Shown here one piece after another: positions 11,090 to 50,275 of a stretch of 50,290 nucleotides of DNA. Location of the stretch: sequence record OK272485.1; one strand, 5' to 3'. The notes under the pieces were generated by a model that searched no databases, was not told the origin of the DNA, and saw nothing but the letters and a program-made list of their open reading frames with translations. The position numbers and the translations under genes are program-made. Origin of the DNA: Escherichia phage JLBYU07. How positions within the stretch are numbered: the stretch's first letter is position 1; every line of letters starts with the position of its first letter.

Positions 11090-11110
11090 CTTTTAACAAA
11101 AAGTGCTATT
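11090..11110 (-). promoter_or_regulatory. conserved intergenic box copy (minus orientation)
   Basis: TAG is stop of MTase-like gene; followed by hairpin GCCAGGTGTAAAAACCTGGC and ATAATC. Confidence 0.65.
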
Positions 11111-11816
11111 TTGAATTTGACTCAAAGACGGCGCGAGCAAATCCGCGCGGAGTGAGGGAGCGTAGTTGCTTTGTTCTGGCAGACTTACCGCCTAAAAACT
11201 TCCAACCCCAAAAGAACATTACGCCATCATCATTGGATAACGGCTTGCGTTCCGGTTCGGTAAATCCGTTGCCGCACCAGATAGCCGTCCTTTTAGTGTA
11301 GCCATCCTTTAGCGGCATTTTGGGGTGAAATGACCCATCGGATTCGTCCAAGTAGTTACCAAAATCGCGCGGATTGAAATAAAAATCCGGCTTGCGCCAT
11401 AGCGTTGATAGTCGGCCTACCGGATTCTCAGCCATCCAGGGAACACCGAAATGATTTCCGACTTTTTCAACCATGATTGCATTTTGGAGCGCGATATGAA
11501 TATCGTCTTCGCTGCGCACATGCTTACTTCCTGATTGGGCGAACATGGTGCAGTCTGGAAAGCCAAATACAATATCAGGTTTTGGAATATCCATCTTAAT
11601 GATGTTTTCAATGAAATTTTCATCAATCCACATATTCACATAATGCAGATTTTCATGCTTCATTTTGATGAAATATTCTCCGTGATTGCCTTCGTCAGCG
11701 TTAAAGCAATAGCATTGATAACCAGCCTTCGCATATTCAAGCAACATGATTCCAGATCCATCAAACATTGAGTAAGCAACTTTATTTCCCATGATTTTTA
11801 TGATACCCCAATTCAT
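11106..11816 (-). CDS. compact C5-cytosine methyltransferase-like protein
   Basis: about 236 aa (start ambiguous 11792/11816/11852); motif I FDGSG, motif IV-like GFPDCTMFAQSG, motif VI ENP, motif VIII-like KRTAIWC; minimal TRD, no clear motif X; stop TAG in box. Confidence 0.45.
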   Translation of the reverse strand: MNWGIIKIMGNKVAYSMFDGSGIMLLEYAKAGYQCYCFNADEGNHGEYFIKMKHENLHYVNMWIDENFIENIIKMDIPKPDIVFGFPDCTMFAQSGSKHVRSEDDIHIALQNAIMVEKVGNHFGVPWMAENPVGRLSTLWRKPDFYFNPRDFGNYLDESDGSFHPKMPLKDGYTKRTAIWCGNGFTEPERKPLSNDDGVMFFWGWKFLGGKSARTKQLRSLTPRGFARAVFESNSK

Positions 11817-18305: not shown

Positions 18306-18515
18306 ATGGATCAGAACAAAACAGCAAAATATAAATTCACTGACGACTACGGAGACACTATCGACGTTTATCAGCGTGGGAATCAGATCTTTATAGATGG
18401 CACTTTCGAATATGGCCGGATGCCAGACTTTCGGGGAATACTTTCGTCAGATAGCGCGCGACGCATGGCGAACGTGTTAAATGAACTGGCGGCAAAGATT
18501 GAGGCGATGCAATGA
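18306..18515 (+). CDS. hypothetical protein
   Basis: 69 aa; tightly spaced after upstream gene. Confidence 0.5.
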   Translation: MDQNKTAKYKFTDDYGDTIDVYQRGNQIFIDGTFEYGRMPDFRGILSSDSARRMANVLNELAAKIEAMQ

Positions 18516-18826
18516 AAAAATACACTTTCGAACTGTGGGGCAAGAAGTACGAATTAATCACCAGCAAGCCGATTGTTGTGTGCGATCTCGACGGCACACT
18601 ATCGGACGGCGCGCCTAGCTTCTTTGCTATCCATTCTATTGACGGCAAGGATATTGGGTACAACGTTATCCGTCGAGATGGAATATCAAAACTTAGTGAC
18701 CTGGTAGGCCATATTGTGTCAATCGGGAAATGCGCATGGCCCGATTCGCCACGAGAGCCGCGCCGCCGCGACATGGTAGATCCTGTTCTGCTTTACACCA
18801 TGGTAGTAGAAGGAGAAAATAAATGA
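18512..18826 (+). CDS. hypothetical protein with HAD-like DxDGT motif
   Basis: 104 aa; VVCDLDGTLSDG resembles HAD phosphatase motif I, other HAD motifs not evident. Confidence 0.4.
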   Translation: MKKYTFELWGKKYELITSKPIVVCDLDGTLSDGAPSFFAIHSIDGKDIGYNVIRRDGISKLSDLVGHIVSIGKCAWPDSPREPRRRDMVDPVLLYTMVVEGENK

Positions 18827-47213: not shown

Positions 47214-47238
47214 GCCCCGCATATGCGGGGCATTTTTT
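47214..47238. terminator. bidirectional rho-independent terminator
   Basis: hairpin GCCCCGCATATGCGGGGC with A-run upstream and T6 downstream; between convergent ssb and S74-domain gene. Confidence 0.7.
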
Positions 47239-47449
47239 AGTCTAACGTGGTTGGTTTGTTTACCAGTGCCGCTACAACCGCTTTTAGCTCGTCAATTTCT
47301 TTTCTCATCTCATCGTTTTCCGCTTTCAGTTTCTTAACGTGGTGAATCAGTGGAACAGTGAGGCGGTCATACATAACGCCTTCCGCCACCATGCCATTAC
47401 TTGAAGCAATGGCAGGATCTTCTCCTTCTTGCAGCGGTCGCCAGTGAAC
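47237..47449 (-). pseudogene. in-frame continuation of the S74 chaperone domain downstream of the TAA
   Basis: same frame stays open 70 codons and encodes the conserved distal S74 part ...VMYDRLTVPLIHHVKKLKAENDEMRKEIDELKAVVAALV. Confidence 0.5.
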
Positions 47450-47932
47450 TTACTCCGGCGCAACCTCTCCAACTTCCTCTGCAATCAGTCCGTACCATCC
47501 CCAATCTTTACGGTCGCTTTCACAAGTTGACCGATACCACACAGGACGCATTTCAAGCATCAGATCCGCATATTCATCAATAACCGATTCTACGCTGCGC
47601 TTATAACGAGAAGAGGAAGTTGAGCGTAAAACTTGCGACACTCCAGCATTTGGATCAAGCCATAAGTTTGCTGATTGAGCGGTTGTGTTAATATTAAATA
47701 AATAAAATGCATCGTTACCAGTTAGGGGGTAAAAACTCCCACTATACCTTCCGCTACCCAACTCGGATGATAGATCAGTTTGTTTTAGATACGGTTTCAA
47801 CTTATTGTCAACATCAGTAGTTGATGCTTTTCCGGCAACATCCTGCTTTAGTGTCGAAACATCCTGATTTATCGTAGAAACATCATTTTTCAGCTTCGTT
47901 ATATCACTAGGTATAACAGTTACTGTAGCCAT
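47450..47932 (-). CDS. fibre-like protein with C-terminal intramolecular chaperone (peptidase S74) domain, terminated by in-frame TAA
   Basis: 160 aa; AAGGAG RBS; N-terminal coiled coil; S74 signature SSRYKRSVESV...LEMRPVWYRS...GLIAEEVGEVAPE then TAA. Confidence 0.6.
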   Translation of the reverse strand: MATVTVIPSDITKLKNDVSTINQDVSTLKQDVAGKASTTDVDNKLKPYLKQTDLSSELGSGRYSGSFYPLTGNDAFYLFNINTTAQSANLWLDPNAGVSQVLRSTSSSRYKRSVESVIDEYADLMLEMRPVWYRSTCESDRKDWGWYGLIAEEVGEVAPE

Positions 47933-47944
47933 TTTCCTAACTCC

Positions 47945-48223
47945 TTAAGCCCATTCTCTAATCGGCTGATCTAACTCAACCACGTAGCCGTTAAAAATTA
48001 CGGCATCAAACTTATCATCAATGATTCGCACATTGACGAAATAGCCGTCGTTCTTTCGCGCAATCTCATCGCCATCGTCAGATCGTGCAATTACTGTGTA
48101 AGTATTGCCGATTACATCGAGCAGGATTGCATCCTGAATGGATTCGTTTTCGTTCCATTCAATTTCTTCCAGAAAGGCGGAAAACTCCGCCTTGTCTACA
48201 AATTTCAGTGTTAAATCACGCAT
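47945..48223 (-). CDS. hypothetical protein (tail-fibre operon)
   Basis: 92 aa from ATG 48223 overlapping tail-fibre stop (TAATG). Confidence 0.5.
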   Translation of the reverse strand: MRDLTLKFVDKAEFSAFLEEIEWNENESIQDAILLDVIGNTYTVIARSDDGDEIARKNDGYFVNVRIIDDKFDAVIFNGYVVELDQPIREWA

Positions 48224-50184
48224 TATACAATTTCCCCCAATTGATGATCTGTTAGTGCCTTGTGCCATATACGGAAGTTTCTAACGTGCCCGAAAAGATG
48301 ACGTTCTCCCGTAGTTGTTTGTCCGCCAATCCTTATAGTAGCCGTTGATACTATATATCTCCATTCCGTTTTTGTTTCGCTTGATATTCTGGCATTACTT
48401 ACACAGCAATTTTTGTAATCACTCTTTACTCTCATTCCCATGATCATCTTTTTTAGTTTTGCATTCTCGTAAACCCTTCTGTTTGATCCACCTATATCGC
48501 AATAATGGAATCCATCATTATCGCCCTCGGCAGACCCGAAAGCAAGAATAATTGCCGCACCATATTGATGACCACCAGTATCGAAAACGCGAGGCGCAGC
48601 ATTTGGTGTTCTACTCCAGTTTTTATGAGCCTCCACAAGAATTGTAAACGGCAAATTGTAAAGGTTGTTTTTTATTGGCACTGTAACCATATCGCTTGCC
48701 CTTGTAGTCGGTGACGGACCTGATTGAATATAAGAAGAAGCACAAGACCCCAATTCAACTTGAGGGGTTGACAATTCAATATAATCCCCATCTGAATAAG
48801 CAGACACTGGAGATATTTGAAACTGAGCGTTTACCTTATTTTCTATTGCCTTGAATGTAACAATGGCAATATTCCATCCTGTAACATCATCCGTGTAAAC
48901 CTCAACATTAATTCTGTTTGCAGCACCCCCAGTTTTCTGGACTGAAAGATCCTTAAGTTTTATGTAAACACCTCCAGCGAATGCGATACTCCCAATATCA
49001 GCGCCAGCGGCAAATCTTACCCTCAATCTAACATCTTTATCTGATCTAAATCTGCATGAAGCAGTAACATTTTTTTCATTGCCAGATGTATCAAGGCTGT
49101 GAGCAGAAATAACAGATGCAAGGTTTAGCGCATCTGTTCCGCCAACATTAGACTGATCTGGAGCGAAGCGACCATAAAGAAATCCAAATGAATCTGTATT
49201 CGCTGTCACTTGCACAGAAGCTGAGCAACCCCAACCAGCAGGAGTTGAAGCATTAATCATATGGTTTGTTCTCTGCCCTTCAATCAGCAATCCATCTCTT
49301 TCAAAACGTGGTTCATCAATTGCTGCAACTGTAAAAACACCTGATTTGTTAATGTAAGTAGCGGTTGATGCTCGTTTAAACTTAACTATCTTGTCACCTG
49401 GCATCGTGATCTCATCGTCACCTATAACAATCTTTTTGTATGACGGCGAGAATCCGGTAATCATATCCAGGGAGTCATTAAATGGTATCCACACGTCCGG
49501 CAACGGTTGCAATAAGTCCTTGTAAGGTTCTGCGGCCTGATTTGCGTATTCCTCCGCTTGATCTCGCGCACTTTCAGCTCCTGCCTTTGCAGTGTTCGCA
49601 GCGTCACGCGCGGATTCAGCGCCTTTTCTTGCAGTTTCAGCGCCAGTCTTTGCAGTGTTTGCAGCGTCGCGCGCGGATTCAGCGGCAGCCTTTGCAGTGT
49701 CAGCACCTTTCTTGCTATTCTCTGCATTTGTTGCGCTTGTCTTTGCGTTATTCTCGCTAGTTTTAGCTGCCTTCTGACTTGCTGCGGCTGCGTCAGCATT
49801 TGTCTTTACGTCTTCCTGGATCTTCTGTAGCTTATCCCAATCAAAATCCTTGATGATCTCAATAAATCCAGCAAGCTCCGACTCCTTTCCCTGGTAATAA
49901 CGCAACGTTTCCGCTACGTCTTGCGCAAGACCATCAACCGTTAACGAGTCATGAAGCAAGATCAGGTAATTTGTCTTCTTGACTACCGCGCCGCCAGTAG
50001 TAATTGCGCGAATGCTTGTATCGCTAATCACTTCTGTAATCACAGCAGCTTGCAAAGGTTGAGCAAGAAAGAAAATAGTTGCGCCTGGGCGAATCAAGGT
50101 TAATTGCTCACGCCATTTTGTACCGTAACCAGTTACATAACCTTGCGCGTCCATAGACGCTTGGCCTTGTCTGTAAATCGCCAT
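48223..50184 (-). CDS. side tail fibre protein
   Basis: 653 aa from ATG 50184 (AGGAGG RBS); Ala/Lys/Ser-rich AxxSA repeats (AESARDAANTAKTGAETARKGAESARDAANTAKAGAESARD), Gly/Ser/Thr-rich distal domain. Confidence 0.75.
   Translation of the reverse strand: MAIYRQGQASMDAQGYVTGYGTKWREQLTLIRPGATIFFLAQPLQAAVITEVISDTSIRAITTGGAVVKKTNYLILLHDSLTVDGLAQDVAETLRYYQGKESELAGFIEIIKDFDWDKLQKIQEDVKTNADAAAASQKAAKTSENNAKTSATNAENSKKGADTAKAAAESARDAANTAKTGAETARKGAESARDAANTAKAGAESARDQAEEYANQAAEPYKDLLQPLPDVWIPFNDSLDMITGFSPSYKKIVIGDDEITMPGDKIVKFKRASTATYINKSGVFTVAAIDEPRFERDGLLIEGQRTNHMINASTPAGWGCSASVQVTANTDSFGFLYGRFAPDQSNVGGTDALNLASVISAHSLDTSGNEKNVTASCRFRSDKDVRLRVRFAAGADIGSIAFAGGVYIKLKDLSVQKTGGAANRINVEVYTDDVTGWNIAIVTFKAIENKVNAQFQISPVSAYSDGDYIELSTPQVELGSCASSYIQSGPSPTTRASDMVTVPIKNNLYNLPFTILVEAHKNWSRTPNAAPRVFDTGGHQYGAAIILAFGSAEGDNDGFHYCDIGGSNRRVYENAKLKKMIMGMRVKSDYKNCCVSNARISSETKTEWRYIVSTATIRIGGQTTTGERHLFGHVRNFRIWHKALTDHQLGEIV
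49470..49800 (-). repeat. tandem coding repeats in tail-fibre gene
   Basis: repeated units TTTGCAGTGTT[CT]GCAGCGTC[AG]CGCGCGGATTCAGCG on the plus strand. Confidence 0.65.
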
Positions 50185-50200
50185 TTGTAAAATCCTCCTA

Positions 50201-50220
50201 AATAGCACTTTTTGCTAATG
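50201..50220 (+). promoter_or_regulatory. conserved intergenic box copy (variant AATAGCACTTTTTGCTAATG)
   Basis: antisense to and abutting the AGGAGG RBS of the tail-fibre gene; partial second copy at 50232-50248. Confidence 0.55.
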
Positions 50221-50249: not shown

Positions 50250-50275
50250 AAAAAAAAACCCCGCATAAGCGGGGC
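50250..50275 (-). terminator. rho-independent terminator (minus strand)
   Basis: hairpin CCCCGCATAAGCGGGG; on the minus strand followed by T9. Confidence 0.65.

What the first reader, a model, noticed from the sequence alone, without database searches (positions are those of the whole stretch)
47237..47932. In-frame TAA interrupts a peptidase-S74 intramolecular chaperone domain gene in the tail-fibre operon
Seen in sequence: ORF 47450-47932 (160 aa) carries the proximal S74 chaperone signature (SSRYKRSVESV...LEMRPVWYRS...GLIAEEVGEVAPE) and stops at TAA (47450-47452). The same frame stays open for 70 more codons to 47237 and encodes the distal part of the domain (...VMYDRLTVPLIHHVKKLKAENDEMRKEIDELKAVVAALV). 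The stop falls where such domains usually read PE-L-V, so one substitution (TTA to TAA) would explain it. Established knowledge: S74 domains are C-terminal auto-cleaving chaperones of tail fibres and spikes. Inference: a recent nonsense mutation, a sequencing error, or regulated readthrough.
Basis: partly seen in the sequence, partly recalled or inferred. Interest (0 to 1): 0.65.

Follow-up and report, generated by a model that had tools for sequence, protein, structure and literature searches.

The report
Nonsense mutation in phage side-fibre gene
A single base change (TAC to TAA) cuts short the gene for a small side-tail-fibre protein in this T1-like coliphage. Related phages have knocked out the same gene many times in different ways, so it is most likely a real but ordinary loss of a dispensable fibre part.

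Summary
On the minus strand, a 160-codon ORF (47932-47450) ends at TAA (47452-47450). The same frame then stays open for 70 more codons to the natural stop at 47239-47237.

The window is a Warwickvirus genome (Drexlerviridae), about 98% identical to Escherichia phage tunus.

The gene encodes a short distal or branch lateral-tail-fibre subunit:
- an N-terminal docking motif and coiled coil;
- a Ser106/Lys111 self-cleavage site;
- a 126-residue intramolecular chaperone.

The stop removes 71 of those 126 residues, including the beta-hairpin and the C-terminal trimerising helix, so the product should be non-functional.

Eleven of 34 related GenBank genomes also carry a disrupted copy, through at least 8 different lesions. 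EC195 and EC125 carry the identical TAA. The adjacent 2-kb fibre gene is intact in all of them. No other gene the window shares with tunus (77 matched by tblastn) is broken.

Best reading: a genuine, recent loss-of-function allele of a disposable fibre component, comparable to the lambda PaPa stf frameshift. Sequencing error is unlikely but cannot be excluded without reads. Programmed readthrough is not supported.

The parts
47450..47932 (-). Truncated ORF of 160 aa. It retains the N-terminal docking motif, the coiled coil, the short mature fibre part (residues 1-105), the Ser106/Lys111 cleavage dyad and the first 55 residues of the chaperone domain.
   Evidence: ORF table and translation. Pfam PF13884 matches residues 106-160 at 20.1 bits, below the 22-bit cut-off. 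S106 and K111 are invariant in 42 homologues.
47450..47452 (-). Premature ochre stop TAA replacing Tyr161 (TAC). The changed base is 47450 (+ strand T, ancestral G).
   Evidence: Every other sequence examined reads TAC except EC195 and EC125, which carry the same TAA.
47237..47449 (-). The untranslated remainder of the gene: 70 codons (residues 162-231 of the intact protein) plus the natural TAA stop at 47237-47239. It encodes the beta-hairpin and the C-terminal coiled-coil helix of the chaperone domain.
   Evidence: The frame is open and identical to tunzivis and L006. The model of the 99%-identical intact orthologue P0001 has strands 162-166 and 181-186 and helix 188-224 at pLDDT 89-97. Fold matches are MyRF ICA 7dc3, endosialidase chaperone 3gw6 and GA-1 3gud.
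47600..47617 (-). Codons for Ser106 through Lys111 (SSSRYK), the predicted Ser-Lys autoproteolysis dyad. Cleavage is expected between Thr105 and Ser106.
   Evidence: These columns are invariant in alignment A2. The five-residue spacing and the preceding Thr match T5 pb1 Thr1263/Ser1264/Lys1269 (PMC4690869).
47834..47899 (-). N-terminal heptad-repeat (coiled-coil) region. Its copy number varies among relatives by 21-nt and 42-nt indels.
   Evidence: Alignments. Helix 12-33 in the model has low confidence.
47945..48223 (-). Conserved 92-aa gene between the fibre gene and the S74 gene. Function unknown; it may be an adaptor or assembly factor.
   Evidence: 100% identical to tunus_82. Matches phrog_1361. 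47% identical to the 92-aa protein in the same position in T5-like phage IrisVonRoten.
48223..50184 (-). Proximal lateral tail fibre gene (653 aa), intact.
   Evidence: tblastn against tunus_81 shows full coverage with no stop. PHROG tail fibre families match. The gene is a single CDS in all annotated relatives (checked).
47214..47231 (.). Bidirectional intrinsic terminator hairpin shared by the fibre operon and the convergent ssb gene.
   Evidence: Terminator scan, found on both strands.

Best explanation
The TAA is a genuine, recent loss-of-function point mutation: TAC (Tyr161) to TAA, which is + strand G>T at 47450.

The gene encodes a short distal or branch subunit of the lateral tail fibre. 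The intact protein has 231 aa. Residues 1-105 are the mature part, made of a docking motif, a coiled coil and a small tip. Residues 106-231 are a self-cleaving intramolecular chaperone that trimerises the protein and then cuts itself off at Thr105|Ser106.

The stop removes 71 of the 126 chaperone residues, including the beta-hairpin and the C-terminal helix that forms the trimeric coiled coil. The 160-aa product should therefore fail to trimerise, fail to cleave, and yield no functional distal subunit.

The phage tolerates this because lateral fibres of T1-like and T5-like phages are accessory adsorption devices, not needed on rough laboratory E. coli. The loss may even be favoured during plaque isolation.

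Shown here: the lesion, its ancestral state, the extent of the domain, and the recurrence of disruption in relatives. Inferred: non-function of the truncated product, the subunit's role, and the selective cause.
For: Ancestral state:
- The 11 intact GenBank orthologues checked by sequence, four relatives broken elsewhere in the gene (JLBYU10, orkinos, JLBYU19, AV105) and the one IMG/VR relative read TAC/Tyr at this codon.
- Across 63 homologues the residue is Y, F, L or V, and never a stop.

The lesion is recent:
- The 70 downstream codons show no decay, with 0 differences from tunzivis and L006.
- The gene is under purifying selection (pN/pS 0.24).

Assembly quality:
- None of the 77 tunus proteins that have a tblastn match in the window shows an in-frame stop; 74 align over at least 95% of their length, and the three partial matches look like module replacement or deletion.

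The domain spans the stop:
- The AlphaFold model of the 99%-identical intact orthologue is confident across residues 110-225, with two strands and a 37-residue helix after position 161.
- Foldseek matches MyRF ICA 7dc3 (E = 2e-5, 134 columns), endosialidase chaperone 3gw6 and GA-1 3gud.
- In T5 pb1 and MyRF, the C-terminal triple coiled coil nucleates or drives trimerisation. In MyRF, point mutations in it block both trimerisation and cleavage (PMC4690869, PMC8326128).

Recurrent disruption of the same gene: 11 of 34 distinct GenBank Warwickvirus genomes, with at least 8 different lesions.
- Same TAA: EC195 and EC125.
- GGA>TGA: Phunderstruck.
- GAG>TAG: tuinn.
- C5>C6 frameshift: orkinos, JLBYU19, AV105.
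- +CC insertion: JLBYU10.
- Single-base deletions: ityhuna and brachmannus.
- 13-nt deletion: KMB46.
- Truncated forms also occur in other assemblies (P0015, P0017, P0044).

Dispensability:
- Drexlerviridae lateral fibres are thought not to be required for host recognition (PMC8594841).
- DT57C lateral fibres are needed only on O-antigen strains (PMC10713586).
- A Bas13 lateral-fibre deletion outcompetes wild type on K-12 (bioRxiv 10.1101/2023.05.21.541620).
- Lambda with side fibres rapidly throws off stf-null, large-plaque mutants on agar: 19 of 21 clones, mostly indels in homonucleotide runs (PMC2762979).
Against: - No reads are available, so a consensus-level base error cannot be excluded.
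- Selection simply against lateral fibres should also hit the adjacent 2-kb fibre gene. That gene offers more mutational targets (10 homopolymer runs of 5 or more versus 3; 247 versus 102 nonsense-capable changes). Yet none of the 34 relatives shows a disruption: single CDS in all annotated records, with full length confirmed in ten. This gene specificity is unexplained.
- The isolation host and passage history of this phage are unknown.
- Non-function of the 160-aa product is inferred from homologous systems, not tested.
- EC195 and EC125 carry the same TAA on a different haplotype. The allele may therefore circulate in nature and spread by recombination rather than arising in culture.
Confidence: 0.75

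Rival explanations
1. Sequencing or assembly error: the phage actually carries TAC and the gene is intact.
For: It is a single-base difference from all close relatives. G>T is a known oxidative-damage artefact class (own knowledge). No contig encoding exactly this 160-aa product is on record.
Against: None of the 77 tunus proteins with a match in the window is interrupted, so the assembly is not error-prone. The change is a substitution, not a homopolymer indel. EC195 and EC125, from another laboratory, carry the identical change. The same gene carries real-looking nonsense and frameshift lesions in nine further genomes from several laboratories.
Confidence: 0.12
2. The TAA allele is a natural null polymorphism circulating in Warwickvirus populations. 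This phage acquired it by descent or recombination rather than by mutation during laboratory isolation. This is a variant of the best explanation, not exclusive of it.
For: The identical TAC>TAA occurs in EC195 (pond water) and EC125 (wastewater), on a haplotype that differs from the window at 8 sites within the 40 nt upstream. The sequence downstream is invariant, so a crossover is possible. The family is highly mosaic.
Against: EC195 and EC125 are identical over the 1119-nt locus and may be one phage isolated twice. With four independent nonsense events, a coincident hit has a probability of roughly 0.06-0.16 under uniform targets, so independent recurrence is not excluded. The only uncultivated relative found (L006) is intact.
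Confidence: 0.3
3. Functional recoding: the TAA is read through, by an ochre-suppressor host or by programmed readthrough, so that full-length protein is still made, perhaps at a regulated low level.
For: The frame is perfectly preserved after the stop. Tyr-inserting ochre suppressors exist in E. coli (own knowledge).
Against: The stop is present in only 3 of 35 genomes and is a sense codon elsewhere, so it is not a conserved recoding site. The window encodes no tRNA. UAA is the most efficient E. coli terminator, and no readthrough-stimulating element is known for this context (own knowledge). Other relatives inactivate the gene by frameshifts and deletions that readthrough cannot rescue.
Confidence: 0.04
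4. The split gene still works as two polypeptides: the 160-aa N-terminal part plus a 51-aa product from the ATG at 47392. Phunderstruck annotates the equivalent ORF as "putative tail protein".
For: A 51-aa ATG ORF (47392-47237) exists in frame. It is annotated as a CDS in some relatives.
Against: No Shine-Dalgarno sequence precedes that ATG (sequence). Residues 161-180, including the first hairpin strand, would be missing. In known chaperone domains the hairpin and helix act as one covalent unit within a trimer (PMC4690869).
Confidence: 0.02

Closest known systems
C-terminal intramolecular chaperone / autoprocessing domain (MEROPS S74; Pfam PF13884) of phage K1F endosialidase, T5 pb1 and GA-1 gp12, and the eukaryotic MyRF ICA domain
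   Same: Invariant Ser-Lys dyad with five-residue spacing, preceded by Thr. Same order of elements: first alpha/beta hairpin, long beta-hairpin, C-terminal coiled-coil helix. Similar length (126 residues versus 133 in T5). Fold matches to 7dc3, 3gw6 and 3gud.
   Different: The domain sits on a very short mature part (about 105 residues) in a stand-alone 231-aa protein, rather than at the end of a large fibre or spike. The Pfam score is marginal (22.5 bits against a 22-bit cut-off). In this window the domain is cut in half by the stop.
Two-protein (branched) lateral tail fibres of T5-like phages: LtfA/LtfB of DT57C and DT571/2, and the equivalent locus of IrisVonRoten (Bas32)
   Same: Same gene order: proximal fibre, then a 92-aa protein, then a second fibre protein carrying an S74 domain. 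The 92-aa proteins are 47% identical. The second protein has the same N-terminal motif, M-x-T-x-T-V-I-P-x-D-I-T-K-L-K-N. The proximal fibre's last ~540 nt are about 88-89% identical at DNA level.
   Different: The Warwickvirus distal protein is 231 aa, against 574 aa in Bas32, with almost no room for a receptor-binding domain. Attachment to the proximal fibre has not been shown for this family.
Lambda PaPa stf frameshift and "disposable side tail fibres" (Hendrix & Duda 1992, own knowledge; Gallet et al. 2009, PMC2762979)
   Same: An accessory side-fibre gene is inactivated by simple point lesions in laboratory-propagated phage. The lesions recur independently, and many fall in homonucleotide runs. 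The phage remains viable.
   Different: Here the lesions hit only the small distal S74 gene and never the large fibre gene (11 of 34 versus 0 of 34). No phenotype has been measured.

Membership tests
Peptidase S74 / intramolecular chaperone autoprocessing domain | Profile match to Pfam PF13884 at or above the gathering score (22 bits) | tested here: inconclusive
   The window's 160-aa ORF scores 20.1 bits, below the cut-off. The repaired 231-aa protein scores 22.5 bits, just above it. Several homologues carry precomputed PF13884 hits.
Peptidase S74 / intramolecular chaperone autoprocessing domain | Catalytic Ser-Lys dyad, with Ser at the cleavage site and Lys five residues downstream | tested here: met
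   S106 and K111 are invariant in 42 homologues. The sequence RST|SSSRYK matches T5 pb1 T1263|S1264...K1269.
Peptidase S74 / intramolecular chaperone autoprocessing domain | Characteristic fold: alpha/beta hairpin, long beta-hairpin tentacle, C-terminal helix forming a triple coiled coil | tested here: met
   Tested on the intact orthologue P0001 (99% identical). pLDDT is 80-97 over residues 110-225. Foldseek finds 7dc3 (E = 2e-5), 3gw6 and 3gud. In the window's own product the hairpin and helix lie after the stop and would not be translated.
Peptidase S74 / intramolecular chaperone autoprocessing domain | Trimerisation-dependent autoproteolysis that releases the chaperone | not testable with these tools
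   Needs protein expression, SDS-PAGE or mass spectrometry.
Two-component (LtfA/LtfB-like) lateral tail fibre | A second fibre gene downstream of the proximal fibre gene, sharing a docking N-terminus and having its own C-terminal chaperone | tested here: met
   The three-gene module is conserved in T5-like Bas32 and in an E. coli prophage next to dusA. PHROG tail fibre families match the N-terminus and C-terminus.
Two-component (LtfA/LtfB-like) lateral tail fibre | Physical attachment of the distal protein to the proximal fibre in the virion | not testable with these tools
   Needs virion proteomics or cryo-EM.
Disposable side-tail-fibre null alleles (lambda PaPa stf type) | Inactivating lesion relative to intact relatives, recurring independently, in a viable phage | tested here: met
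   The gene is disrupted in 12 of 35 genomes, counting the window, by at least 8 distinct lesions. Intact alleles are under purifying selection.
Disposable side-tail-fibre null alleles (lambda PaPa stf type) | Phenotype: slower adsorption or larger plaques, with no loss of viability on rough hosts | not testable with these tools
   Needs adsorption and plaque assays of TAA versus repaired TAC phage.
Programmed stop-codon readthrough / recoding site | The stop codon is conserved among relatives, with a dedicated suppressor tRNA or a stimulatory context | tested here: not met
   The stop occurs in 3 of 35 genomes only, with TAC elsewhere. No tRNA gene is present in the window.

The most novel reading that the evidence does not exclude
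The small S74 fibre gene may be a specifically counter-selected, or naturally on/off, "disposable" locus in Warwickvirus.

It is knocked out in about a third of sequenced isolates by at least 8 independent lesions. The adjacent 2-kb proximal fibre gene has more mutational targets but is never hit (P about 2e-5 if the lesions were distributed neutrally by gene length).

This would mean the distal mini-subunit itself lowers fitness under isolation conditions, while the proximal fibre is needed. It could do so by capping or masking the proximal fibre, or by causing over-adsorption. Alternatively, null and intact alleles may coexist in nature as a host-range or adsorption switch.
Probability: 0.45. 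Interest if true: 0.5.

Novelty: new member of a known kind. Interest (0 to 1): 0.35.

Why it matters
For this genome, the practical point is annotation. Positions 47237-47932 should be recorded as one disrupted gene (a pseudogene or nonsense allele of a lateral-tail-fibre subunit), not as two small hypothetical ORFs. Several GenBank relatives do record it as two ORFs.

More broadly, roughly one in three sequenced Warwickvirus isolates carries a broken copy of this one gene. Phenotypes such as host range, adsorption and plaque size, measured on isolate collections or on therapy candidates, may therefore reflect fibre-defective laboratory variants rather than the natural virus. That the lesions hit this gene and spare the neighbouring fibre gene also gives a simple genetic handle on what the distal S74 mini-subunit does.

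Tried and rejected
- **Independent copies of the TAA allele.** A 23-mer with N at the variable base found one relative in IMG/VR, and it reads TAC. A 20-mer with TAA in JGI metagenomes hit only L007, an unrelated high-GC capsid gene. That is a chance match; blastn finds no similarity to the window. An exact-product look-up for the 160-aa ORF found nothing.
- **Sequence search of solved structures** with the repaired protein gave only a spurious coiled-coil hit. The fold search was needed instead.
- **Ectopic template for the mutation.** No second near-copy of the 16-mer around the stop exists in the window. An inverted-repeat scan failed on a strand-format error and was not repeated.
- **Suppressor tRNA.** None is encoded.
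- **Mutational hotspot at this codon.** The coincidence with EC195 and EC125 has a chance probability of about 0.06-0.16, so it is not strong evidence either way.
- **Larger mutational target in the S74 gene.** Rejected. The fibre gene has more homopolymer runs and more nonsense-capable sites.
- **The GenBank label "lateral tail fiber chaperone" (acting in trans).** I consider it less likely than "distal fibre subunit with its own chaperone", given the shared docking N-terminus and the Bas32 and prophage modules. It is not excluded.

Full report
**1. The observation**

On the minus strand, an ATG at 47932 opens a 160-codon ORF ending ...GLIAEEVGEVAPE-TAA. The stop lies at 47452-47450. The same frame continues without a stop for 70 codons (VHWRPLQEGEDP...KAVVAALVNKPTTLD) to TAA at 47239-47237. 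A bidirectional terminator hairpin follows at 47231-47214.

**2. What the window is**

The window is an almost complete genome of a Warwickvirus (Drexlerviridae, Tempevirinae). It is about 98% identical to Escherichia phage tunus over shared regions, but it is not identical to any record in the phage collection.

The operon on the minus strand contains:
- a lateral tail fibre gene (50184-48223, 653 aa);
- a conserved 92-aa gene (48223-47945);
- the interrupted gene (47932-47237).

The operon is convergent with ssb.

**3. Ancestral state of the codon**

In the four intact relatives first aligned (tunus, XY3, JK16, PeterMerian/Bas05), and in frameshifted JLBYU10, the codon is TAC (Tyr). The intact relatives carry a single gene of 224-245 aa. 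It is annotated as "chaperone of endosialidase", "putative lateral tail fiber chaperone" or "tail fiber protein". The one IMG/VR relative also reads TAC.

Across 63 homologues from a 5.8-billion-protein search, the residue is Y in 33, F in 12, L in 17 and V in 1. The lesion is therefore TAC>TAA (+ strand G>T at 47450), not TTA>TAA. Leucine at this site occurs only in distant homologues.

**4. Is the downstream frame part of the domain?**

Pfam's Peptidase_S74 model (58 positions) matches residues 106-160/162 and ends at the stop. It scores 20.1 bits for the truncated ORF and 22.5 bits for the repaired protein, against a cut-off of 22. The downstream 70 residues hit only generic coiled-coil families. 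A profile search alone would therefore wrongly suggest that the domain is complete.

I modelled the 99%-identical intact orthologue P0001 with 41 homologues. Residues 110-225 are confident (pLDDT 80-97). They contain helix 119-127, strands 130-134 and 145-149, and helix 151-157. After position 161 come strands 162-166 and 181-186 and a long helix 188-224.

Foldseek against the PDB gave:
- MyRF ICA domain 7dc3: E = 2e-5, 134 aligned columns;
- K1F endosialidase intramolecular chaperone 3gw6;
- GA-1 chaperone 3gud.

S106 and K111 are invariant. They reproduce the Thr|Ser...Lys arrangement of T5 pb1, where the residues are T1263, S1264 and K1269 (PMC4690869). The protein therefore divides into a mature part (residues 1-105) and a chaperone (residues 106-231). 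The stop deletes 71 of the 126 chaperone residues.

In T5 pb1 the chaperone ends in a central triple coiled coil from which folding is proposed to start. In MyRF that coiled coil is the main driver of trimerisation, and single substitutions in it block both trimerisation and cleavage. By inference, the 160-aa product cannot trimerise or mature.

**5. What the gene is**

PHROG matches place the protein at the C-terminal ends of long tail fibre families. Its first 46 residues match the N-terminus of another tail fibre family.

The same three-gene module occurs elsewhere:
- In an E. coli prophage next to dusA: fibre of about 650 aa, then 89 aa, then a 227-aa S74 protein.
- In the T5-like phage IrisVonRoten (Bas32): lateral fibre of 796 aa, then 92 aa (47% identical), then a 574-aa protein. 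That protein begins MVTKTVIPTDITKLKN (the window's begins MATVTVIPSDITKLKN) and ends in a clear S74 domain of 46.9 bits.

The last ~540 nt of the window's fibre gene are about 88% identical to lateral fibre genes of several T5-like phages.

T5-like phages such as DT57C have branched lateral fibres built from LtfA plus LtfB (PMC4728585, PMC10713586). Maffei et al. note that lateral fibres of small siphoviruses may consist of two or more proteins (PMC8594841).

I therefore read the gene as a miniature distal or branch fibre subunit with its own intramolecular chaperone, rather than a chaperone acting in trans. This is an inference from synteny and shared termini.

**6. Is the lesion real?**

No reads are available. 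Indirect evidence favours a real mutation:
- None of the 77 tunus proteins with a tblastn match in the window carries an in-frame stop; 74 align over at least 95% of their length, and the three partial matches look like module replacement or deletion.
- The change is a substitution, not a homopolymer indel.
- The same gene is broken in many relatives (section 7).
- The downstream 70 codons are identical to those of two intact relatives. The intact alleles show pN/pS of 0.24, with 0.22 upstream and 0.32 downstream of the stop position. The gene is functional in the lineage, and the lesion is recent.

**7. Recurrent, gene-specific disruption**

Forty phage records, representing 34 distinct genomes, carry this gene at about 95% nucleotide identity or more. 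Eleven of the 34 are disrupted:

| Phage(s) | Lesion |
|---|---|
| EC195, EC125 | identical TAC>TAA |
| Phunderstruck | GGA>TGA |
| tuinn | GAG>TAG |
| orkinos, JLBYU19, AV105 | C5>C6 frameshift |
| JLBYU10 | +CC insertion |
| ityhuna | single-base deletion (-G) |
| brachmannus | single-base deletion (-A) |
| KMB46 | 13-nt deletion in the heptad-repeat region |

EC195 and EC125 carry the TAA on a haplotype that differs from the window at 8 sites within the 40 nt upstream. The two are identical to each other over the 1119-nt locus.

Eleven of the 23 apparently intact genomes were verified by translation. The other 12 are inferred to be intact from a single CDS under the match. Truncated forms also appear in other public assemblies (P0015, P0017, P0044).

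In contrast, no disruption of the adjacent 1.96-kb fibre gene is seen in any of the 34 genomes. It is a single CDS in every annotated record, is confirmed full-length in ten (tunus, JLBYU10, XY3, JK16, PeterMerian, EC195, orkinos, tuinn, Phunderstruck and the unannotated brachmannus), and is intact in the window itself. Yet it has more homopolymer runs (10 versus 3) and more nonsense-capable changes (247 versus 102). If eight lesions fell neutrally by gene length, the chance that all eight land in the S74 gene is about 2e-5.

The coincidence of the same TAA in the window and in EC195/EC125 is only mildly improbable by chance (0.06-0.16). It could also reflect recombination of a circulating null allele.

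**8. Mechanism and precedent**

Lateral fibres of Drexlerviridae are thought to bind O-antigen as a non-essential primary receptor. DT57C lateral fibres are needed only on O-antigen strains. A lateral-fibre deletion in Bas13 outcompetes wild type on K-12. Lambda carrying side fibres quickly yields large-plaque stf-null mutants on agar, mostly indels in homonucleotide runs (PMC2762979).

The window's TAA fits this known pattern: loss of a disposable fibre component. The loss is tolerated on the propagation host and possibly favoured there. Why only the small distal gene is hit remains unexplained.

**9. Rivals**

- Sequencing error: about 0.12.
- Natural null polymorphism acquired by descent or recombination: about 0.3, and not exclusive of the main reading.
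- Readthrough or suppression: about 0.04. The phage has no tRNA, the stop is not conserved, and other relatives use frameshifts.
- A functional two-piece protein: about 0.02. There is no ribosome-binding site before the ATG at 47392, and the hairpin would be broken.

**10. Verdict**

The feature is an ordinary nonsense allele of a known kind of gene. The added point of moderate interest is that this particular gene is repeatedly and specifically inactivated across the genus.

Noticed in passing
window 47237-47932 and GenBank relatives (L002, L009-L016, L019, L033): Eleven of 34 related GenBank Warwickvirus genomes carry an independently disrupted copy of this gene, by nonsense changes, frameshifts or a 13-nt deletion. 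The neighbouring 2-kb fibre gene shows no disruption in any of them. Many records annotate the fragments as separate hypothetical proteins.
   Followed up: yes
window 47834-47899 (minus strand, codons ~12-33): The N-terminal coiled coil is built of 7-residue repeats (K-x-D-V-S-T-L/I). Copy number varies among relatives: +42 nt in tunus, XY3, EC195 and others; -21 nt in JK16, tunzivis and ityhuna. KMB46's 13-nt deletion lies in this repeat region.
   Followed up: partly
window 48247-48786 (3' part of the fibre gene, minus strand): About 88% nucleotide identity to lateral tail fibre genes of ~108-kb T5-like phages (IrisVonRoten, VSe12, mar004NP2 and others). This indicates exchange of the fibre C-terminal module between Drexlerviridae and Demerecviridae. 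The module of fibre, 92-aa gene and S74 protein is also present in an E. coli prophage next to dusA (L017).
   Followed up: partly
window ~18512-18613, 11109-11801 and other early-region sites: Only the first 34 residues of tunus gene 44 (putative kinase-phosphatase, 179 aa) have a counterpart here. Tunus genes 39, 43, 49, 50 and 53 have none. The tunus DNA methylase (gene 63) is replaced by a 45%-identical one. This looks like mosaic module replacement or deletion rather than point disruption.
   Followed up: no
window 47214-47231 and 50258-50275: Two near-identical GC-rich terminator hairpins (GCCCCGC-xxAT-GCGGGG) bracket the fibre operon. The one at 47214-47231 scores on both strands and serves the convergent ssb gene as well.
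   Followed up: no
window 50184-50208: The mechanical ORF list starts the fibre gene at GTG 50208 (661 aa). All homologues start at the ATG at 50184 (MAIYRQGQ..., 653 aa).
   Followed up: partly
GenBank OR847733 (Listeria phage LM 4-11-1, 1.8 kb), OR850771 (Salmonella phage S.Inf 5-2, 4 kb), MG065636 (Campylobacter phage A16a, 50 kb): Records labelled as Listeria, Salmonella and Campylobacter phages match coliphage T1-like or T5-like fibre DNA at 89-91% identity. These are probably contaminant or mislabelled sequences.
   Followed up: no
L011 (tuinn) codons around GLIAE*VGQ; L019/L032 (brachmannus): Tuinn carries a second substitution (GAA>CAA) three codons after its TAG. Brachmannus is flagged UNVERIFIED in GenBank, yet its fibre gene is intact, so its single-base deletion in the S74 gene need not be an assembly error.
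   Followed up: partly
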